Shown here: positions 1 to 4,567 of the stretch, one piece after another | How the letters are laid out: each line of letters opens with the position of its first letter | How positions within the stretch are numbered: the first letter of the stretch is position 1 | Source of the DNA: Candidatus Nanopusillus sp. | GTDB taxonomy: Archaea > Nanobdellota > Nanobdellia > Nanobdellales > Nanobdellaceae | Length of the DNA: 5,115 bases | Assembly: GCA_046536775.1 (NCBI GenBank) | Contig: JAWDMD010000031.1 | Coordinates: forward strand, 1-5,115 | Direction of reading: 5' to 3' | The notes under the pieces: model-generated | What the model saw: only the letters and a program-made list of their open reading frames with translations | Databases searched by the model: none | Told to the model about the DNA's origin: nothing | Made by a program: the position numbers and the translations under genes

Positions 1-216
1 ATTACTTGTTTGAAATTCTATATGTAGTATTGAGTTATCTTCAAGCTCTAAAAGTAAATCCACCCTTCTTTCTTTTGTGCTTGGAAACGCTGAGTTCAAA
101 ACACGTTTGTAGTTTTTACCTATTATCATTCTTATAAATGCGCTTTCTGAAAAAGATGGAATTATATCTCTTATTGTGATATCTATCTTCTGAGGATGTT
201 TATTCTCTTGATCCAT
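1..216 (-). CDS. Rpn/YhgA-like PD-(D/E)XK nuclease / putative transposase family protein, first 72 codons only (gene continues beyond the left window edge)
   Basis: Absent from the supplied track because it has no stop inside the window. The reverse complement of 216..1 is an uninterrupted frame from ATG (216..214): MDQENKHPQKIDITIRDIIPSFSESAFIRMIIGKNYKRVLNSAFPSTKERRVDLLLELEDNSILHIEFQTSN. The block RRVDLLLEL..NSILHIEFQ is the Asp ... Glu-x-Gln nuclease core I associate with Rpn/YhgA-type (transposase_31-like) proteins. The family call rests on that motif alone. There is no Shine-Dalgarno upstream. Confidence 0.5.
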   Translation of the reverse strand, partial: MDQENKHPQKIDITIRDIIPSFSESAFIRMIIGKNYKRVLNSAFPSTKERRVDLLLELEDNSILHIEFQTSN

Positions 217-228
217 AACTTAAGTAAA

Positions 229-237
229 ATTATATCA
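229..237 (-). promoter_or_regulatory. Candidate extended -10 element (TGATATAAT on the minus strand) for the Rpn-like gene
   Basis: The reverse complement of 237..229 reads TGATATAAT. Only 12 nt separate it from the ATG at 216..214, implying a leader of about 5 nt (near-leaderless). That fits the lack of an SD. Confidence 0.3.
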
Positions 238-324
238 CTCTTTGTATAAGTCTATATAAAGCATAGAAAGAGAGGTTTGTCATATTTGAGATAAGTGTTT
301 TCTTAAAAGAAAATAATATCACGA

Positions 325-396
325 CAAGTCTGCCACAATCCACAAGTATACCACGATAAACAAGTCTGCCACGATCCACAAGTCTACCACGGTTTA
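325..396. repeat. Four head-to-tail 18-bp direct repeats (iteron/operator-like array)
   Basis: Units: 325..342 caagtctgccacaatcca, 343..360 caagtataccacgataaa, 361..378 caagtctgccacgatcca, 379..396 caagtctaccacggttta. The period is exactly 18 bp and the conserved core is CAAGT(C/A)T(G/A)CCAC. Units 1 and 3 are 17/18 identical; units 2 and 4 are 14/18 identical to unit 3. A fifth core copy (aagtctgccgc) occurs at 4188..4198 in the right-hand flanking repeat. Confidence 0.85.
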
Positions 397-451
397 TATG
401 TCTACGATGTATTGAACTTGTGCAATTTTTTATAAATAAATATGATATAAT
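380..451. repeat. Left copy of the ~70-bp imperfect direct repeat bracketing the cassette (candidate attL / duplicated rpsT promoter region)
   Basis: 380..424 aligns without gaps to 4188..4232 (offset 3808) with 41/45 identities. Mismatches are at 386, 389, 398 and 402, and all are transitions. Similarity continues with small indels through TATAAAT (431..437 vs 4237..4243) to the TGnTATAAT element (443..451 vs 4248..4256). Confidence 0.85.
443..451 (+). promoter_or_regulatory. Candidate extended -10 promoter (TGATATAAT) for the three-ORF cassette
   Basis: Perfect TGnTATAAT at 443..451, about 78 nt upstream of the first ORF. TTGAAC at 412..417 is -35-like but lies 28 nt from the -10, so it is probably not used as a -35. 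The homologous element sits upstream of rpsT at 4248..4256. Confidence 0.45.
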
Positions 452-529
452 AAGTCATAGGAGAGTAGATTAATTATTAAGTTTTAAAAGTAGTTGAAAT
501 AAACAGATAGGAATAAAAGGAGTGAAGTT

Positions 530-604
530 ATGGGAAAACCTTATAAGACTTTGAAATTGATTTCTTACTTTCACAATAAGCAGATCAGATTTTTAAAGGT
601 GTGA
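530..604 (+). CDS. Hypothetical 24-aa basic peptide (possible leader peptide or small subunit)
   Basis: ATG 530..532 to TGA 602..604 encodes MGKPYKTLKLISYFHNKQIRFLKV. It is preceded by AAGGAG (517..522) with 7-nt spacing, which is a better SD than that of the following ORF. Its stop lies 12 nt before the next start. It is too short for composition or homology arguments. Confidence 0.3.
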   Translation: MGKPYKTLKLISYFHNKQIRFLKV

Positions 605-616
605 AGGGGTGAAAAT

Positions 617-916
617 ATGCCTACTGAAATAATATTAATTGTTATCTTGATTTTATTATTAATTTCAATTGCTTTAAATATTACTACTTACTTGAAACTT
701 GAGAAAAACAAAAGTTTAATACTAGAAGAGATGTCAAATCGTCACAAAGAGGTATCAAATCACAACAATATGATTCAAACCGCAATGAACCAAGCGTTTT
801 TAGATCTAGATAAAAAGATAGAGCGACATGAAAATGAAATCAAAGAACTTGAGGAAAAAATTGAGCATATTATAAAACTTCTTAAAGAGCCATTAACAGA
901 GGAAGATTTAAGATGA
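617..916 (+). CDS. Hypothetical small membrane-anchored coiled-coil protein (99 aa)
   Basis: ORF from the track. SD-like AAGGGGTG lies at 604..611, 5 nt before the ATG. The N-terminus EIILIVILILLLISIALNITTYL is one hydrophobic helix. The remainder is charged, heptad-like sequence (KKIERHENEIKELEEKIEHIIKLLKE). Stop TGA 914..916 overlaps ATG 913..915 of the helicase gene (ATGA). I do not recognise a family. Confidence 0.7.
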   Translation: MPTEIILIVILILLLISIALNITTYLKLEKNKSLILEEMSNRHKEVSNHNNMIQTAMNQAFLDLDKKIERHENEIKELEEKIEHIIKLLKEPLTEEDLR

Positions 917-1794
917 ATGATAAACAATATATCTTAGATTATCTTGGATATTTAAAAGAGTTAAGTAGAAAAATCGGTGTTGGAGTTGATTTTGGAAATC
1001 TTGTTAAATCTAAACCAAGAAATAAAAATCTTGAAAATACTTTTTTCTACTTTGATAAAAACTTAGACATAGGAGAAATTTATAGAATTGACATAGGAGA
1101 AATTTATAGAGCTAATAAAGAAGTAGATGGAAAATTATATTGGTACTTAAGGCAAAAGCTTATAGAAATTAATAATTCAAATCAAGCAATATTTTTAGGT
1201 ATTGGATTATTAAAATATGTAATAAAAGAGAATGGAAGTTATACCAATAAAGCCTTTGGACCTATTTTTATAGTTAACTTAGATATAGAAGAAGATAAGG
1301 AAGGTAAAAGTATATCTATTTATTTTGAAAACTCATATATAAATTATGATCTTTTTAATAACATATCTGAAAATTTAGAAGATAACGAAAACTCTATCCA
1401 ATTAGAACAAGCAGTATACTTTATAAAAACCTTAGAAGAAAAACTTGAAGAAACAAATAATTTGCTTGGTTTAAAGACTCTTGCAAAAGAAGCTATTTTG
1501 AAAATTCCTGAAGCATTTAACATTAAAATTGAACAAGACATTACAATAGAAAACAAAAATGTAGAAGAGATATTTGATAAAAAAGAAAGCGTTTATTTAG
1601 ATAGAAATTATTTTTTTGTCAATAACTTTCCTTCTGAACTATCAACTTACAAATCTTTAGAATTGTTAATTCAAGAAATAAATGAAGAAGGAGATTTTAA
1701 AAACAGCACACTAAAAAAACTTTTTGTATCAGCCTTTGAAGAAAAGATTAACTTAGAGAAAGTTGACAATTTTAAACTTGAAGACTATGAATAT
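913..1794 (+). other. N-terminal region of the 1087-aa protein, tentatively DUF4011-like
   Basis: aa 93-126 read IFLGIGLLKYVIKENGSYTNKAFGPIFIVNLDIE. This resembles the pattern (hydrophobic-G-x-L-x-W/Y ... A/G-P-L/I-hydrophobic-x-P/N-V/L-x-L) that I remember from the DUF4011 domain preceding AAA_11/AAA_12 helicase cores. PRNKNLEN (aa 35-42) is loosely reminiscent of its RNxLLN motif. This is recognition from memory only. Confidence 0.35.
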
Positions 1795-4176
1795 TTAACT
1801 CCTTTGCAACTTTCAGAAAGTCAGAAAAAAGCTCTTGAGAATGCTATAAATTACGAAATTTCTTATATACAAGGACCTCCGGGAACTGGTAAAAGCCATA
1901 CTATAACTGCATTGGCTTTATTGTCTATTTTACTTGATAAAAAAATTCTAATCGTTTCTCAAAAACCACCGGCTATTAAGGTTCTGTTTGAAAAGTTAAC
2001 AGAAATTTTAGAAAAAAATAACATTATTCCGTTTATTTATTACTATGATGAGCACAAAAGAAAAATGAAGGAAAATGTAGGAGCTGTTGAGAGATTAAAT
2101 ATAAAAGACGATTTAGAAGAAAGATTAAGATACTTGGAAGAAAGAGCAATAGATTACATTAATGAGTTAAAAGAATTAGAGAAAAATTATAAAAAATATC
2201 TTGCATTGGAAAATAAATATTACTCTATAAGAAAAGATTTGAATGATGAAGTCAAGTTTTTTGAGGGAGGATTTTTTAATATCAAAAATTACCTCAATCA
2301 CTTAAAATGCATAGAAATTGAAGAGCTAAATCTTCATAAAAATACTTTTAAAGTATTAGAAGGATATGGAAATACAAGACTTTTGCAGTTAAGAAAAGTA
2401 TTTCTTTATAGATTTTTAAAAAACTATCACAAAGAGCTTGAGCTTAAGAAATTTTTAAATATTAGCCAATCTTTATTCTTAGATTCTCTGATAAAAATAA
2501 TTTATGATTATAATAAAATTCAAGATACAAAAAGTAAGATTTTATCATTTGGAGATATACAGAATTTAGTCAATCGGATAAACCATATAAAAAGCCAATT
2601 AATGCAAGTTTCAAAAGAGTTAGTAAATTTAAAGCTATTACTTAAGATTTATGAAAATGCACAAAAATATAAAAATAATTTAGCCAAATTTAAGAATGTT
2701 TTTCATTGGGTAAAAGATCGTTTATTAAAGAATGTACAAGAAAAAGTTAATTATGAAAATATTTTGGAAATTTTTAATATTTGGATTGTAGATATTCCAA
2801 ACGTAGACAGAATACTACCTATGAAGCCAAACTTATTTGATATCGTTGTAGTTGATGAATCCTCTCAGGTAAATTTAGCTCAAATAATTCCGGTATTTTA
2901 TAGAGGTAAGCATATTTGTGTAGTTGGAGACCATAAACAGCTAAGCCTTGAGGCTACAGGTTTAGGATTTTCTATTGGTGGAAAACTTGATAGGTATACA
3001 TGGGAAAAATTTAAACCAAATAAGATAGATTATGAACAAGCAAAAAGAAGAGATTTAATATTAACAAAATCTTCTATTTTAGATTTTCTAGTTTCAGATG
3101 ATTCTGATAAAGATTCGAACAGAGAATCTTTTAACTACATAAGCGCAGAAGCTCAAAGTATGTTAAACGAACATTTTAGGTCAGTTTATCCTTCGGCAAG
3201 TTTTACTTCAAAGAAATTTTATGAAAATAAGATTTATATTATGACAAAAAATCCGAATTTAGAAGATAAAGCATTTAAAAGTATCAAAGTTAACGGTAAA
3301 AGGCATTTAAAATTTAATGTTGTTGAAGAAGAAATAGATGAAGTTTTTAAAATTATTAAAAGTCTAAAAAGAAATAGAAGATATGAGGACGTTGTTTTAC
3401 CAGATTATGTTCCAGAAAATTTTTCAATAGGGGTATTATCATTTACAAGGGATCAAGTGGTGAGGTTGAAGATTAGAAGTTATGCAAACAGTTATGAAGA
3501 TATATTCATAGGAACGCCAGAAGAATTTCAAGGTCATGAGAAAGATGTAATGATTATATCACTTGCTTTGGATGAGACATGCACAAGAAGTAAAAACCAT
3601 TATGAAAATAAAAATAGATTTAATGTTGCTACAAGTAGAGCAAAATATTTTACGTTTTTAGTTTATGGTGGAATTCCTGAAAACTTCCATTTGACTAAGG
3701 AATACATAGCACACTTTGAAAGTATAGAAAATATAGATAGAAAAGACATTGATACAGAAAATGCTTGCTTTGACAAATCTAAATTTGACTCAGAATTAGA
3801 GGAATTTGTTTATAATTATTTAAAAGATATAGTAAACGAGATAAATAAAAATTACCACTCAGATATAAGAATATACAATCAATATGAAACTTGTGGTTAT
3901 AGATTGGATTTTGTATTGCATAATAGAAAAAACAAAAAATTTATTGCATTGGAAGTTGATGGACCATACCATTATGAAATGGCAGGTTTACAAAATATTA
4001 ATTATGCTGATTGGCATATAGAAAGAGCAGAAAGGTTAAAAAGAGCTGGGTGGAAAATAATTCATACACCATATTATAGGTGGTATATTAACGGATGGTT
4101 AGATTCAAGCAATCCTATTATGAGAGAAGAGTTAGAAAGAATTAAAAAGGAACTAGTAGAAAACTTAACCACTTAA
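913..4176 (+). CDS. DUF4011-like / Upf1-DNA2-like SF1 helicase / Vsr-DUF559-like PD-(D/E)XK nuclease fusion protein (Hhe-like candidate defence effector, 1087 aa)
   Basis: 3264-nt ORF with SD GAGGA at 899..903. Helicase motifs: Q-like LSESQKKAL (aa 300-308), Walker A GPPGTGKS (aa 321-328, nt 1873..1896), Walker B VVVDESSQ (aa 645-652, nt 2845..2868), motif III VVGDHKQL (aa 670-677), motif IV-like LNEHFRSVYP (aa 751-760), motif V TPEEFQGHEKDVMIISL (aa 868-884), motif VI NRFNVATSRAK (aa 901-911). C-terminus: GYRLDFVL...FIALEVDGPYHY...ADWHIERAERLKRAGWKIIH, which is the DUF559/Vsr-like signature. Confidence 0.95.
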   Translation: MNDKQYILDYLGYLKELSRKIGVGVDFGNLVKSKPRNKNLENTFFYFDKNLDIGEIYRIDIGEIYRANKEVDGKLYWYLRQKLIEINNSNQAIFLGIGLLKYVIKENGSYTNKAFGPIFIVNLDIEEDKEGKSISIYFENSYINYDLFNNISENLEDNENSIQLEQAVYFIKTLEEKLEETNNLLGLKTLAKEAILKIPEAFNIKIEQDITIENKNVEEIFDKKESVYLDRNYFFVNNFPSELSTYKSLELLIQEINEEGDFKNSTLKKLFVSAFEEKINLEKVDNFKLEDYEYLTPLQLSESQKKALENAINYEISYIQGPPGTGKSHTITALALLSILLDKKILIVSQKPPAIKVLFEKLTEILEKNNIIPFIYYYDEHKRKMKENVGAVERLNIKDDLEERLRYLEERAIDYINELKELEKNYKKYLALENKYYSIRKDLNDEVKFFEGGFFNIKNYLNHLKCIEIEELNLHKNTFKVLEGYGNTRLLQLRKVFLYRFLKNYHKELELKKFLNISQSLFLDSLIKIIYDYNKIQDTKSKILSFGDIQNLVNRINHIKSQLMQVSKELVNLKLLLKIYENAQKYKNNLAKFKNVFHWVKDRLLKNVQEKVNYENILEIFNIWIVDIPNVDRILPMKPNLFDIVVVDESSQVNLAQIIPVFYRGKHICVVGDHKQLSLEATGLGFSIGGKLDRYTWEKFKPNKIDYEQAKRRDLILTKSSILDFLVSDDSDKDSNRESFNYISAEAQSMLNEHFRSVYPSASFTSKKFYENKIYIMTKNPNLEDKAFKSIKVNGKRHLKFNVVEEEIDEVFKIIKSLKRNRRYEDVVLPDYVPENFSIGVLSFTRDQVVRLKIRSYANSYEDIFIGTPEEFQGHEKDVMIISLALDETCTRSKNHYENKNRFNVATSRAKYFTFLVYGGIPENFHLTKEYIAHFESIENIDRKDIDTENACFDKSKFDSELEEFVYNYLKDIVNEINKNYHSDIRIYNQYETCGYRLDFVLHNRKNKKFIALEVDGPYHYEMAGLQNINYADWHIERAERLKRAGWKIIHTPYYRWYINGWLDSSNPIMREELERIKKELVENLTT
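1066..1113 (+). repeat. In-frame 24-bp tandem duplication inside the helicase gene
   Basis: gacataggagaaatttataga at 1066..1086 is repeated perfectly at 1090..1110. The third-to-last codon block differs (att vs gct). It encodes DIGEIYRI-DIGEIYRA (aa 52-67). Confidence 0.9.
1795..3663 (+). other. SF1B (Upf1/DNA2/NAM7-like, AAA_11 + AAA_12 type) helicase core
   Basis: All canonical motifs are present in the correct order (see the CDS entry). The GPPGTGKS, DExxQ, GDxxQL, FQGxExD and NVAxSRAK combination is characteristic of Upf1-like SF1 helicases rather than UvrD/Rep-like ones. Confidence 0.85.
3787..4110 (+). other. C-terminal Vsr/DUF559-like (MTES_1575-type) PD-(D/E)XK endonuclease domain
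   Basis: The candidate catalytic constellation is intact: D999 (nt 3907..3909, in RLDF), E1014 and D1016 (nt 3952..3960, in LEVDG) and H1020. It is followed by D-x3-R-x3-L-x3-G-W-x-I-I (aa 1033-1050), typical of DUF559. Confidence 0.75.
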
Positions 4177-4187
4177 CTAAGCTCTAT

Positions 4188-4256
4188 AAGTCTGCCGCGG
4201 TTTATGTGTTTACGATGTATTGAACTTGTGCATTTGTATAAATTGTTTGTTATAAT
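4188..4256. repeat. Right copy of the ~70-bp imperfect direct repeat (candidate attR / native rpsT promoter region)
   Basis: See the left copy. It starts 12 nt after the helicase stop codon and ends 29 nt before the rpsT ATG. It contains one copy of the 18-bp repeat core (aagtctgccgc). Confidence 0.85.
4248..4256 (+). promoter_or_regulatory. Candidate extended -10 promoter (TGTTATAAT) of rpsT
   Basis: TGnTATAAT at 4248..4256, with a second overlapping TATAAT at 4256..4261. It lies 29 nt upstream of the rpsT ATG. The SD AAAGGAGGT is at 4272..4280. Confidence 0.5.
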
Positions 4257-4285
4257 ATAATATTAATTTTTAAAGGAGGTTTTAG

Positions 4286-4567
4286 ATGCCCAACAAAAGA
4301 CAGGCTGCTAAAAGAGCTAGAAGAGATGAAAGAAGAAGAGAGATAAATGCGTTGCACGTATCAAGGATGAAAACTGCCATAAGGAATTTTAAGAAACTCA
4401 TACAAGCCAAAGATTTGGAAACCGCCAAAGCCAAACTTCCTTTTGTGGTAAGTATGATCCAGCACGCAGCCGCTAAGGGTTCTATACACAAAAACGAAGC
4501 GGCCAGAAGAGTCTCAAGAGTTACACAGCTTTTAAACAAGGCTTTGGCATCCAATGAGCAAAAATAA
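4286..4567 (+). CDS. rpsT: 30S ribosomal protein S20
   Basis: 93-aa product MPNKRQAAKRARRDERRREINALHVSRMKTAIRNFKK...AAKGSIHKNEAARRVSRVTQLLNK. It matches the conserved S20 pattern (AKKRA..E.RR..N....S..KT.IK ... AAKG.IHKN.AAR). There is a strong SD with 5-nt spacing. G+C is higher than in the upstream cassette. Confidence 0.95.
   Translation: MPNKRQAAKRARRDERRREINALHVSRMKTAIRNFKKLIQAKDLETAKAKLPFVVSMIQHAAAKGSIHKNEAARRVSRVTQLLNKALASNEQK

What the first reader, a model, noticed from the sequence alone, without database searches (positions are those of the whole stretch)
530..4176. Helicase-nuclease cassette with two small tightly linked partner ORFs: candidate undescribed defence system
Three co-oriented ORFs sit behind one promoter, with junctions of 12 nt and -4 nt (ATGA). 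They are a 24-aa basic peptide, a 99-aa single-pass membrane/coiled-coil protein, and a 1087-aa DUF4011-like + Upf1-like SF1 helicase + Vsr/DUF559-like nuclease. Helicase-plus-nuclease proteins of this kind are established anti-phage effectors (Hhe- and Nhi-type; more loosely the Gabija/Hachiman logic). The context also looks accessory: the cassette is far more AT-rich than the adjacent rpsT, it is bracketed by direct repeats, and it lies next to an Rpn-like nuclease/transposase gene. As far as I recall, the Hhe-type protein is described as a single-gene system. A coupled small membrane protein would therefore be a new configuration. It could act as a membrane tether or sensor, or as an inhibitor that keeps the nuclease silent until infection.
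Basis: partly seen in the sequence, partly recalled or inferred. Interest (0 to 1): 0.8.

Follow-up and report, generated by a model that had tools for sequence, protein, structure and literature searches.

The report
Membrane-tethered helicase-nuclease two-gene module
A small membrane-anchored helical protein and a large helicase-nuclease form a conserved, horizontally mobile two-gene unit found in many bacterial phyla, most likely an undescribed relative of known anti-phage helicase-nucleases, though no function has been tested.

Summary
The ORFs are real and sit where stated. In about 26 of 28 homologous loci from at least 8 phyla, a co-oriented gene ends -17 to +17 nt from the helicase start. 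It encodes an N-terminal TM helix, a helical spacer of variable length and a conserved C-terminal motif. Three of three partner-first look-ups found the helicase directly downstream.

Three points fail or weaken:
- The 24-aa ORF occurs only in near-identical strains.
- No DUF4011 was detected.
- The neighbouring gene is only a sub-threshold Rpn relative.

The module is accessory. Hydrogenobaculum strains with an identical S20 protein lack it. It is flanked by a duplicated piece of the rpsT upstream region. Its GC is below that of its flanks in 27 of 27 loci, its genomic position differs between lineages, and it is sometimes a pseudogene.

The large protein is a Upf1-like SF1B helicase. It has a 220-aa helical insertion, a Vsr/MTES_1575-type nuclease and a family-specific N-terminal domain that is a separate gene in some lineages.

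Best reading: the partner tethers the enzyme to the inner face of the membrane, where it attacks incoming nucleic acid. Defence is inferred, not shown. The protein is not a member of Hhe, Mokosh or CoCoNuT. I rate it a new variant of a known kind.

The parts
617..916 (+). Partner gene (99 aa). It has an N-terminal TM helix (aa 5-23), a continuous helical spacer, and the C-terminal motif IIKLLKEPLTEEDLR.
   Evidence: ORF. (TM KD 3.15; more K/R after the TM in 26 of 26 partners, so N-out/C-in). (helix 2-90, pLDDT 92). (C-terminal motif conserved). (conserved synteny).
913..4176 (+). Helicase-nuclease gene (1087 aa), overlapping the partner's stop by ATGA.
   Evidence: AF2 model with pLDDT 84 and pTM 0.79. 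Foldseek best matches are senataxin, Sen1, Upf1, IGHMBP2, Dna2 and ZNFX1. PDB sequence hits are the same proteins.
913..1782 (+). N-terminal domain (aa 1-290), specific to this family. It is encoded as a separate ~255-264-aa gene between partner and helicase in some lineages.
   Evidence: no Pfam family. (only 26 hits in 1.84e9 representatives, all family members or stand-alone versions). (split loci L016, L017, L018, L026).
1795..2097 (+). First part of RecA-like domain 1, with Walker A GPPGTGKS (K327).
   Evidence: AAA_11 299-393. (invariant G321-K327).
2110..2772 (+). Helical insertion of about 220 aa (aa 400-620) inside RecA-like domain 1.
   Evidence: helices 401-620, pLDDT about 85-95. 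The same feature is described for CnuH helicases in PMC11090510.
2773..3672 (+). Rest of RecA1 (Walker B D648/E649, GDxxQL 672-677) and RecA2 (QGxExD 873-878, VAxSRA 905-910).
   Evidence: AAA_12 746-917. (invariant residues).
3790..4173 (+). Vsr-type PD-(D/E)xK nuclease domain (MTES_1575/RAP), with conserved D999, E1014, D1016, H1020 and H1035.
   Evidence: RAP 29.4 bits, above GA 24.2; MTES_1575 31.5 bits, below GA 38.2. (both families in 43 of 44 members). (conservation). (MTES_1575 defined as a Vsr-fold REase, PMC3710099).
380..452 (.). Left copy of the flanking direct repeat, a duplicate of the rpsT upstream region. The core 380-424 is 91% identical to 4188-4232. The copy includes a putative extended -10, TGATATAAT, at 443-451.
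   Evidence: The -10 was read directly from the sequence and was not found by the scan.
4188..4257 (.). Right copy of the direct repeat. This is the native rpsT upstream region, with TGTTATAAT at 4248-4256.
   Evidence: Empty-site strains L093-L097 carry a single copy directly upstream of rpsT.
530..604 (+). 24-aa upstream ORF with a good SD (AAGGAG). It is lineage-specific and not a conserved part of the system. It may be a local leader ORF or a chance ORF.
   Evidence: tblastn finds it only in L079. (intact in three near-identical strains). (a 1-nt indel changes its frame relative to the partner in CP004347). (no room for it in L083).

Best explanation
Window 617-4176 is a two-gene operon that behaves as a horizontally mobile accessory module.

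Gene 1 encodes a single-pass membrane protein. Only 0-18 residues lie outside the cell. The rest is one long cytoplasmic alpha-helix of very variable length, ending in a conserved ~12-residue C-terminal motif.

Gene 2 encodes a Upf1-like SF1B helicase fused to a Vsr-type nuclease, with a family-specific N-terminal domain.

Proposed mechanism:
1. The partner's C-terminal motif docks onto the large protein, probably onto its N-terminal domain.
2. This holds the ATP-driven helicase-nuclease on a stalk at the inner face of the cytoplasmic membrane.
3. There the enzyme loads on and cuts foreign nucleic acid as it enters or is first expressed: phage DNA, conjugative or transforming ssDNA, or their transcripts.

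Shown here: the gene pair and its conservation; the TM/helix/motif architecture; intact ATPase and nuclease residues; accessory and mobile behaviour.

Inferred: physical binding, membrane localisation of the enzyme, the substrate, and the defence role.
For: Synteny:
- A partner with TM, helical tail and (in 17 of 22 aligned) the C-terminal motif lies directly upstream in about 26 of 28 family loci. These come from Aquificota, Bacteroidota, Nitrospirota, Planctomycetota, Verrucomicrobiota, Cyanobacteria, Sumerlaeota, Ignavibacteria and Chloroherpetonaceae.
- The reciprocal test gave 3 of 3.

Topology:
- 26 of 26 partners have the TM helix in the first ~35 residues and more K/R after it than before.
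- AF2 models a single helix over residues 2-90.

The spacer is free to vary while both ends are kept:
- Partners of 61, 99, 128 and 153 aa occur in Hydrogenobaculum copies whose helicases are 87-98% identical. All keep the same TM helix and the same ...EKIEHI(I/V)KLLKEPLTEEDLR end.
- Lengths reach 340 aa elsewhere.

Link between partner and N-terminal domain:
- In split variants the order is partner, then the N-terminal-domain gene, then helicase-nuclease.

Enzyme integrity:
- Helicase and nuclease motifs are conserved in 44 homologues.
- The fold is that of Upf1, Sen1 and Dna2.

Accessory and mobile behaviour:
- Strains with an identical S20 protein lack the module.
- It is bracketed by a duplication of the target region. 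The same pattern, with a 304-nt duplication at 96%, occurs in an unrelated genome, L088.
- The genomic position differs between lineages.
- GC is below that of the flanks in 27 of 27 loci, mean -7.9 points.
- Pseudogenised copies exist.

Precedent:
- The nearest model hits are defence helicases: MkoA, MkoC, PDC-S37, Hhe and ProA.
- Membrane-associated nuclease defences are established: Shield ShdA (PMC10270631) and the Zorya ZorA tail that recruits ZorC/D (PMC11946911).
Against: - No experiment exists, and no complex model could be run.
- All defence-family HMM hits cover only the generic helicase core and fall far below the family cutoffs.
- Most copies sit between housekeeping genes rather than in recognisable defence islands. 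Only a handful of 145 neighbour ORFs gave strong PADLOC hits.
- No full-length member was found on plasmids or phages, and only one in viral contigs.
- The external part of the partner is too short to sense anything outside the cell, so a tether is a default reading, not a demonstrated one.
- Upf1-like helicases and RAP domains often act on RNA, so the substrate is open.
- About 5 partners lack the Pro-containing motif and end in a different acidic amphipathic tail.
Confidence: 0.5

Rival explanations
1. The partner is a regulator rather than a passive tether. Either it holds the nuclease inactive and releases it when the membrane is perturbed by infection, or it acts as an antitoxin-like partner of a toxic helicase-nuclease, making the pair an addiction or abortive-infection module.
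For: - Tight translational coupling through ATGA, and strict co-occurrence.
- Pseudogenised helicase genes with intact partners in T. ruber and L100 fit a costly effector.
- Accessory Shield components can negatively modulate ShdA (PMC10270631 abstract).
Against: - The only conserved parts of the partner are the TM helix and about 12 C-terminal residues. The middle changes length freely, from 61 to 340 aa, which is unusual for an inhibitor that must cover an active site.
- There is no external sensor domain.
- Regulator and tether roles are not mutually exclusive.
Confidence: 0.2
2. The module has the same architecture, but the target is RNA: phage or plasmid transcripts, possibly those translated at the membrane. 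This follows what is proposed for CoCoNuT CnuH helicases.
For: - The best structural and sequence relatives are RNA or RNA/DNA helicases: Sen1, senataxin, Upf1 and IGHMBP2.
- The RAP domain match is above the Pfam threshold.
- Type III-B CnuH has the same helicase, helical insertion and Vsr fusion, and is predicted to target RNA (PMC11090510).
- The PADLOC best hit is the Mokosh helicase MkoA, which I recall as being described as an RNA helicase (from memory, not checked here).
Against: - Vsr/MTES_1575-fold nucleases are classically DNA endonucleases (PMC3710099).
- Dna2 is also among the matches.
- No RNA-binding accessory domains (CSD, YTH, SmpB-like) are present.
- No data here distinguish the substrates.
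Confidence: 0.2
3. The pair has a housekeeping or physiological role in membrane-associated DNA processing, such as DNA uptake or repair, and not in defence.
For: - Neighbours are mostly housekeeping genes: rpsT, uvrD, recJ/murC region, P5CR.
- Within Thermocrinis the position between the DUF202 gene and the aconitase gene is stable.
Against: - Presence/absence between strains with an identical S20 protein.
- Different positions in different lineages.
- GC lower than flanks in 27 of 27 loci.
- Pseudogenes in isolate genomes.
- Patchy spread over many phyla at 30-50% identity.
- No conserved third gene.
Confidence: 0.07
4. The module is itself a selfish mobile element, and the helicase-nuclease mediates its own insertion.
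For: - It moves as a compact unit without any integrase or transposase of its own.
- It is bracketed by direct repeats in several independent loci: the window, L088, L003, L014 and L020.
Against: - In the two cases examined (the window and L088), the repeats are duplicated host intergenic sequence, 73 and 304 nt long, not element ends.
- No terminal inverted repeats were seen.
- Most loci have no flanking repeat.
- A conserved membrane partner has no obvious role in transposition.
- P0002 was found at one place in the 1.55-Mb genome shown, CP004347.
Confidence: 0.04

Closest known systems
Hhe (Gao_Hhe; NCBIfam NF042953, 'DUF4011 domain-containing anti-phage protein Hhe')
   Same: A Upf1-like SF1 helicase (AAA_11/AAA_12) with a fused Vsr/MTES_1575-type nuclease. 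Weak HMM hits occur in the helicase core.
   Different: - This protein is 1087 aa, against a model length of about 1800 aa.
- It scores 53 bits against a cutoff of 2000.
- No DUF4011 and no other C-terminal Pfam domain was detected.
Type III-B CoCoNuT CnuH, with the CnuA coiled-coil protein (PMC11090510)
   Same: A UPF1-like helicase with a large helical insertion after Walker A, fused directly to a Vsr-like nuclease, accompanied by a separate protein with no recognisable domain except coiled coil.
   Different: - No McrB-like (CnuB) or McrC-like (CnuC) genes lie next to any copy with Pfam-annotated context.
- The partner here has a TM anchor and a conserved C-terminal motif.
- The N-terminal domain is family-specific, not the Sul7s-like wHTH.
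- Sequence relatedness to CnuH could not be tested, because the supplement sheet is truncated.
Shield ShdA (PMC10270631)
   Same: A membrane-bound nuclease defence. [quoted passage not shown] It reduces phage infection and transformation.
   Different: - ShdA is a single polypeptide with an RmuC nuclease and no helicase.
- Here the anchor and stalk form a separate protein, and the effector is a helicase fused to a Vsr-type nuclease.
Zorya (ZorAB tail recruiting ZorC/ZorD; PMC11946911)
   Same: A long cytoplasmic coiled-coil projecting from a membrane protein connects to soluble DNA-binding and nuclease effectors.
   Different: - There is no MotAB-like motor and no peptidoglycan-binding subunit.
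- The partner is a single TM helix.
- The one weak ZorA hit (E 0.0055, on the L083 partner) falls in coiled-coil sequence and is not meaningful.
Mokosh MkoA/MkoC
   Same: These are the best PADLOC hits (MkoA 2e-36, MkoC 1e-23). They are Upf1-like helicases used in defence.
   Different: - The hits cover only residues ~640-920, the RecA2 region.
- No PLD nuclease is present, fused or adjacent.

Membership tests
Upf1-like (SF1B) helicases | Two RecA-like domains with SF1 motifs (Walker A, Walker B DE, GDxxQL, QGxE, VAxSRA), and a fold and sequence closest to Upf1, Sen1, IGHMBP2 and Dna2. | tested here: met
   Pfam AAA_11 and AAA_12. Conserved motifs in 44 homologues. PDB profile hits Sen1 4e-32 and Upf1 8e-21. 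Foldseek senataxin 4e-20.
Hhe (Gao_Hhe) | A full-length match to the curated Hhe model (NCBIfam NF042953, cutoff 2000 bits) or the PADLOC Hhe model. | tested here: not met
   53.4 bits, covering residues 302-428 only. PADLOC Hhe 52 bits, covering residues 302-395 only.
Hhe (Gao_Hhe) | An N-terminal DUF4011 domain. | tested here: not met
   Pfam gives no DUF4011 hit at E<=0.1 for the window protein, nor at E<=0.01 in any of 44 family members. A phmmer search with the N-terminal domain finds only this family. A structural comparison of the N-terminal domain alone was not possible.
Hhe (Gao_Hhe) | A single-gene system. | tested here: not met
   A conserved upstream partner is present in about 26 of 28 loci.
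Vsr / MTES_1575 / DUF559-type REase fold | A match to the Pfam models, and conserved acidic and histidine residues. | tested here: met
   RAP 29.4 bits, above GA 24.2. MTES_1575 31.5 bits, below GA 38.2 for the window protein, but both families are found in 43 of 44 relatives. E1014 and H1035 are invariant; D999, D1016 and H1020 are at least 90% conserved.
CoCoNuT (Type III-B) | McrB-like GTPase (CnuB) and McrC-like (CnuC) genes in the operon. | tested here: not met
   The window has no such genes. None of the Pfam-annotated contexts has AAA_5/McrB or McrC families.
CoCoNuT (Type III-B) | CnuH architecture: a UPF1-like helicase with a helical insertion after Walker A and a fused Vsr-like nuclease. 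| tested here: inconclusive
   The architecture matches. No CnuH sequence could be obtained to test homology or clade membership.
Mokosh | A helicase paired with or fused to a PLD-family nuclease, with a full-length match to the MkoA or MkoC models. | tested here: not met
   Only partial hits, at 641-912 and 639-919. No PLD domain.
Shield | An RmuC-domain nuclease with an N-terminal TM helix (ShdA). | tested here: not met
   No RmuC hit in either protein. PADLOC gives no Shield hit.
Zorya | A ZorA/ZorB MotAB-like membrane motor. | tested here: not met
   The partner is a single TM helix of 99 aa. The window proteins give no ZorA or ZorB hit.
Rpn (YhgA-like) nuclease/transposase (the neighbouring gene at window 1-216, minus strand) | A match to TIGR01784 or Pfam Transposase_31 above threshold. 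| tested here: inconclusive
   The full-length orthologue (L079 8220-9203) scores 30 bits on TIGR01784, below the cutoff of 52.1. Pfam gives none. Only the C-terminal 90 aa are 42% identical to a true Transposase_31 gene 3 kb away.

The most novel reading that the evidence does not exclude
This is a previously undescribed, widely distributed two-gene immune system. A minimal single-pass membrane protein uses a conserved C-terminal peptide to hold a Upf1-like helicase/Vsr-nuclease on a helical stalk at the inner membrane. The stalk's length is rapidly evolvable (61 to 340 aa, changing by repeat gain and loss between near-identical strains). The enzyme intercepts nucleic acid at the point of entry. 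The family-specific N-terminal domain, which is a separate gene in some phyla, would be the docking or licensing module.
Probability: 0.35. Interest if true: 0.75.

Novelty: new variant of a known kind. Interest (0 to 1): 0.6.

Why it matters
If the tether model is right, the module is a very compact way to place a helicase-nuclease at the membrane. It uses a TM helix, a spacer of adjustable length and a ~12-residue docking peptide. This adds a two-protein solution to the small set of membrane-associated nucleic-acid defences (Shield, Zorya).

The natural series of stalk lengths and the naturally split N-terminal domain are ready-made variants for testing how distance from the membrane and docking control a nuclease.

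The family is common in hot-spring Aquificota, where phage defence is little studied, and also occurs in mesophiles that can be handled in the laboratory.

The finding also shows that Hhe-like helicase-nucleases are not always single-gene systems.

Tried and rejected
- **Three-gene system including the 24-aa peptide: rejected.**
  - tblastn finds the peptide only in the near-identical CP004347 copy.
  - The 87%-identical relative L083 has only 44 nt between the upstream gene and the partner.
  - A 1-nt indel changes its frame relative to the partner between strains.
  - An apparent uORF-partner fusion protein in the database (P0172) is a gene-calling artefact in which TGA was read as Trp; the partner's own stop is read through in the same way.
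- **DUF4011 / Hhe membership: rejected**.
  - The 1400-1650-aa distant relatives found are not Hhe or ProA members either.
- **tRNA or other RNA genes as attachment sites at the flanking repeats:** none found.
- **Carriage on plasmids or phages:**
  - No full-length member on plasmids or phages.
  - One member in IMG/VR.
- **Foldseek against afdb50:** the library was not available.
- **Literature searches:**
  - No paper describing this gene pair was found in searches for a named system with this architecture.
  - The library is incomplete, so this does not prove novelty.
- **A CnuH sequence for direct comparison:** the supplement is truncated.
- **A conserved upstream motif, AATTTCTCAC, seen in L086-L088:**
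  - It is not present in the window or most loci.
  - In L088 it belongs to duplicated host intergenic DNA.
- **Sigma-70 and terminator scan:** no promoter call upstream of the operon and no terminator anywhere in the window.

Full report
**1. What is in the window**

The three co-oriented ORFs exist exactly as described:
- 530-604, 24 aa.
- 617-916, 99 aa.
- 913-4176, 1087 aa.

The gap between the first two is 12 nt, and the last two overlap by ATGA at 913-916.

The surrounding genes are:
- Left: the 5' end of a minus-strand gene (216 down to 1).
- Right: rpsT at 4286-4567 (Ribosomal_S20p, E 1.6e-23), followed by a TPR protein.

GC is 0.21-0.31 across the cassette and 0.36-0.39 from rpsT onward.

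The organism is a Hydrogenobaculum (Aquificota). The large protein is 98% identical to a protein of unclassified Hydrogenobaculum, which lies in the 1.55-Mb genome CP004347.1 at the same locus.

**2. The large protein**

Pfam finds the following:

| Domain | Residues | Score |
|---|---|---|
| AAA_11 | 299-393 | 65.5 bits |
| AAA_12 | 746-917 | 50.2 bits |
| RAP | 1013-1058 | 29.4 bits, above the gathering score of 24.2 |
| MTES_1575 | 973-1060 | 31.5 bits, below the gathering score of 38.2 |

- RAP and MTES_1575 are each found in 43 of 44 family members.
- MTES_1575 was defined as a Vsr-fold restriction-endonuclease domain (PMC3710099).

An alignment of 44 homologues, 26-87% identical, conserves these residues; all are invariant unless marked:
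- Walker A: G321-K327.
- Walker B: D648 and E649.
- G672, D673, Q676, L677.
- Q873, G874, E876, D878.
- N904, V905, S908, R909, A910.
- Nuclease residues: E1014, G1017 and H1035 are invariant. D999, D1016 and H1020 are at least 90% conserved.

The AlphaFold model is good, with pLDDT 84 and pTM 0.79. It shows:
- An N-terminal alpha/beta domain, residues 1 to about 290.
- RecA1, interrupted by a helical insertion of about 220 residues (401-620).
- RecA2.
- A C-terminal alpha/beta nuclease domain.

Foldseek and profile searches of the PDB return senataxin, Sen1, Upf1, IGHMBP2, aquarius, Dna2 and ZNFX1. These are the Upf1-like SF1B helicases.

**3. What the large protein is not**

PADLOC and NCBIfam hits cover only parts of the helicase core and fall far below the curated cutoffs:

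| Model | Result |
|---|---|
| MkoA | E 2e-36, residues 641-912 only |
| MkoC | E 1e-23 |
| PDC-S37 | E 1e-23 |
| Hhe | 52-53 bits, cutoff 2000 |
| ProA | 78 bits, cutoff 1500 |

- DUF4011 is not detected in this protein or in any of 44 relatives.
- A phmmer search with residues 1-290 against 1.84 billion representative proteins found only 26 hits. All are family members, fragments, or stand-alone proteins of 250-350 aa.
- The N-terminal domain is therefore specific to this family.

**4. The partner is conserved. This is the main result.**

A scan of GTDB genomes with a family profile returned about 30 true family loci, 29-42% identical and about 1090-1136 aa. They come from Hydrogenothermaceae, Bacteroidota, Nitrospirota, Planctomycetota, Verrucomicrobiota, Cyanobacteria, Sumerlaeota, Ignavibacteria and others.

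In nearly all loci with an intact upstream region, a co-oriented ORF ends -17 to +17 nt from the helicase start. It encodes an N-terminal hydrophobic helix followed by a long polar tail. The same holds for four closer relatives whose contigs carry gene calls:

| Locus | Partner length | Junction |
|---|---|---|
| L083 | 153 aa | 4-nt overlap |
| L086 | 124 aa | 2-nt gap |
| L087 | 184 aa | 4-nt overlap |
| L088 | 119 aa | 17-nt overlap |

I count about 26 of 28 loci with a partner. The exceptions are:
- L023, a degenerate copy with a frameshifted helicase.
- L005, which lies at a contig edge.

The reciprocal test also held. A profile of seven partners found 173 proteins. All three whose contexts I looked up have the helicase-nuclease directly downstream with a 4-nt overlap.

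**5. Anatomy of the partner**

- In 26 of 26 partners the TM helix lies within the first ~35 residues. It is preceded by 0-18 residues, mostly 6 or fewer.
- In all 26, more Lys/Arg follow the TM helix than precede it.
- By the positive-inside rule the tail is cytoplasmic. This is an inference.
- AlphaFold models the 99-aa protein as one continuous helix over residues 2-90 (pLDDT 92). It breaks at Pro92 and ends in a short, less confident C-terminal turn.

The extreme C-terminus is conserved across phyla. In 17 of 22 partners it follows the pattern 'hydrophobic-hydrophobic-K-E-x-K-x-P-(L/I)-x-x-(D/E)':
- Window: IIKLLKEPLTEEDLR.
- Thermocrinis: RLLKDPITEEDL.
- Bacteroidota: EIK(S/A)PLxLD.
- A second group ends in L(K/R)xSLEESVxF.

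Between the TM helix and this motif, length is free:
- 61 aa in L092, 99 aa in the window and 128 aa in CP004347, where a 29-aa unit is tandemly duplicated. The helicases of the window and CP004347 copies are 98% identical.
- 153 aa in L083, whose helicase is 87% identical.
- Up to 340 aa, with internal repeats, in a Nitrospirota MAG.

Two conserved ends joined by a freely varying helix suggest an anchor, a spacer and a docking peptide.

**6. Split variants**

In two Verrucomicrobiota MAGs, Synechococcus CS-1329 and a Chloroherpetonaceae MAG the system has three genes:
1. The TM/helical partner.
2. A protein of 255-264 aa homologous to residues 1 to about 250 of the window protein.
3. A helicase-nuclease of 844-875 aa.

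The N-terminal domain is therefore an autonomous module. The order 'partner, then N-terminal domain' is kept whether or not the domain is fused. This is my reason for proposing that the partner's tail binds that domain. It is an inference.

**7. The 24-aa ORF is not part of the system**

- It has a good Shine-Dalgarno sequence and is intact in three near-identical strains.
- tblastn finds it in no other locus.
- In the 87% relative L083 the partner starts 44 nt after the preceding gene.
- A 1-nt indel changes its frame relative to the partner between strains.
- It may be a local leader ORF or a chance ORF.

**8. The module is accessory and mobile**

Contigs encoding an identical S20 protein show three main states upstream of rpsT:
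- No insert (L094, L095).
- Only the 328-331-aa minus-strand gene (Y04AAS1 CP001130 and three others).
- That gene plus the two-gene module (the window, CP004347).

L092 also carries the module, but with different upstream genes and a split helicase (section 12).

Alignment of empty and filled sites shows how the insert sits:
- The module follows ...GATGTATTGAACTTGTGCA at 424.
- It is followed by a second copy of the same rpsT-upstream sequence.
- The core copies, 380-424 and 4188-4232, are 91% identical.
- blastn extends the match to 380-452 versus 4188-4257 at 84%.

Each copy carries a TGnTATAAT, at 443-451 and 4248-4256. The module's promoter may therefore be a diverged copy of the rpsT promoter. 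This was read from the sequence; the scan did not call it.

An independent insertion in an unrelated genome, L088 (helicase 40% identical), is bracketed in the same way. There the duplication is 304 nt at 96% identity and consists of the host intergenic region next to uvrD. Shorter flanking repeats occur in L003, L014 and L020. None coincides with a tRNA or an Rfam family.

Further signs of accessory status:
- The genomic position differs between lineages: rpsT; radical-SAM/P5CR; Cu oxidase; DUF202/aconitase, once next to an IS240 transposase; and uvrD/PALP.
- GC is lower than the flanks in 27 of 27 loci, mean -7.9 points and up to -20.
- The helicase gene is broken in Thermocrinis ruber CP007028 (three ORFs) and in L100 (two ORFs).

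**9. Evidence bearing on a defence role**

For:
- The features listed in section 8.
- The nearest HMM relatives are all defence helicases.
- Some neighbours are defence genes: PDC-S05, S23, S41 and S60, DpdE/DrmD, dGTPase, a UG29 reverse transcriptase and type II methyltransferases. All 25 families listed (of 82 with a hit) are matched by a single ORF each, out of 145 scanned.
- A HEPN-like ORF lies next to L023.

Against:
- Most neighbours are housekeeping genes.
- No family member was found on plasmids or phages, and only one in IMG/VR.
- Nothing has been tested experimentally.

The neighbouring 327-aa gene is at best a divergent Rpn-family relative:
- TIGR01784 scores 30 bits against a cutoff of 52.
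- Pfam gives no hit.
- Only its C-terminal 90 residues resemble a true Transposase_31 gene 3 kb away.

**10. Mechanism proposed**

1. The partner inserts N-out/C-in, with its helix projecting into the cytoplasm. The helix would be about 13 nm long for the 99-aa form if fully helical, by my arithmetic.
2. Its C-terminal peptide binds the large protein, probably at the N-terminal domain.
3. The tethered SF1B helicase loads on single-stranded or end-containing nucleic acid near the membrane.
4. The Vsr-type nuclease cuts that nucleic acid.

Membrane-linked nuclease defence has precedent:
- Shield's ShdA has a TM helix, a long coiled coil and an RmuC nuclease. It reduces phage infection and transformation (PMC10270631).
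- Zorya's ZorA tail of about 70 nm recruits ZorC/D (PMC11946911).

Four alternatives remain:
- The partner is an inhibitor or a sensor.
- The substrate is RNA, as proposed for the architecturally similar Type III-B CoCoNuT CnuH helicase with its CnuA coiled-coil protein (PMC11090510).
- The pair has a physiological DNA-processing role.
- The module is a self-mobilising element.

**11. Comparison with known systems and novelty**

The family shares the helicase plus Vsr-type nuclease logic with Hhe and with Type III-B CnuH. It shares the membrane and coiled-coil logic with Shield and Zorya. It fails the membership tests I could run:
- Hhe: model score, DUF4011 and single-gene status.
- Mokosh: no PLD nuclease.
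- CoCoNuT: no McrBC genes.
- Shield: no RmuC domain.
- Zorya: no motor.

I found no paper describing this gene pair. The library is partial, and newer DefenseFinder models could not be run.

I classify the finding as a new variant of a known kind. It is a real and well-supported gene pair with an unusual, testable architecture, but its defence function rests on inference.

**12. Caveats**

- Many loci are MAGs, so some split genes may be assembly errors.
  - In L092 the helicase is split at a run of seven T, which may be a sequencing error.
  - L006, L029 and L037 have fragmented partners.
- The PADLOC census has no matched background.
- The partner count rests on my own ORF calling and hydropathy criteria.

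Noticed in passing
window 324-395; also L093-L097 upstream of rpsT; L079 8114-8210: A tandem array of 18-nt units (ACAAGTCTGCCACGATCC and variants) lies upstream of rpsT. There are four units in the window. Copy number and sequence vary between strains, and a diverged third copy sits on the far side of the neighbouring 327-aa gene. The function is unknown; it could be a regulator binding array or a recombination hotspot.
   Followed up: partly
window 217-4285, compared with L091, L093-L097: The region upstream of rpsT is an insertion hotspot with three main states among Hydrogenobaculum strains that share an identical S20 protein: empty; the 328-331-aa gene only; or that gene plus the module. 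In CP004347 copies of the same upstream sequence lie on both sides of the 327-aa gene and of the module.
   Followed up: yes
L088 7319-7620 and 11320-11623: In an unrelated genome (GCA_017880035.1) the module is bracketed by a 304-nt direct duplication at 96% identity. The duplicated DNA is the host intergenic region next to uvrD, starting at the helicase stop codon. A single-crossover (Campbell-type) integration of a circular intermediate would give this pattern, but the mechanism is unknown.
   Followed up: partly
window 1066-1113: An in-frame tandem duplication of 24 nt lies inside the N-terminal domain of the large protein (DIGEIYRI / DIGEIYRA). It is also present in CP004347 and L092.
   Followed up: no
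L102 5399-8634 (Thermocrinis ruber CP007028); L100 5492-8771; L092 2623-5891: The helicase-nuclease gene is broken into two or three ORFs while the partner stays intact. The L092 break is at a run of seven T in an old draft assembly and may be a sequencing error.
   Followed up: partly
L086 ~131, L087 ~7309, L098, L088 7603, 11606 and (inverted) 7347: The motif AATTTCTCA(C/T)(C/T)C occurs upstream of the partner gene in Thermocrinis-type loci and in L088, but not in the window. In L088 it belongs to the duplicated host intergenic DNA and has an inverted copy 243 nt upstream.
   Followed up: partly
proteins P0163 and P0172: These database entries read through both TGA codons as Trp: the uORF stop and the partner stop. 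This produces an apparent uORF-partner fusion and a C-terminal extension, WMINNIS. It looks like gene calling under a TGA=Trp code on short AT-rich contigs, not a real fusion.
   Followed up: yes
window 4177-4285: No terminator-like site was found between the helicase stop and rpsT, or anywhere else in the window. Transcription from the module could therefore run into rpsT, which also keeps its own TGTTATAAT.
   Followed up: no
L023 4483-5234: The one family locus without a partner has a frameshifted helicase. Directly upstream lie two ORFs whose sequences look like a nucleotidyltransferase and a HEPN protein, a toxin-antitoxin-like pair. This was judged by eye only.
   Followed up: no
L079 5093-6040 and 6582-7232: The same variable region of CP004347 holds a bona fide Transposase_31 (YhgA/Rpn-like) gene (E 2e-31) and a Sel1-repeat protein, a few kb upstream of the module.
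   Followed up: partly
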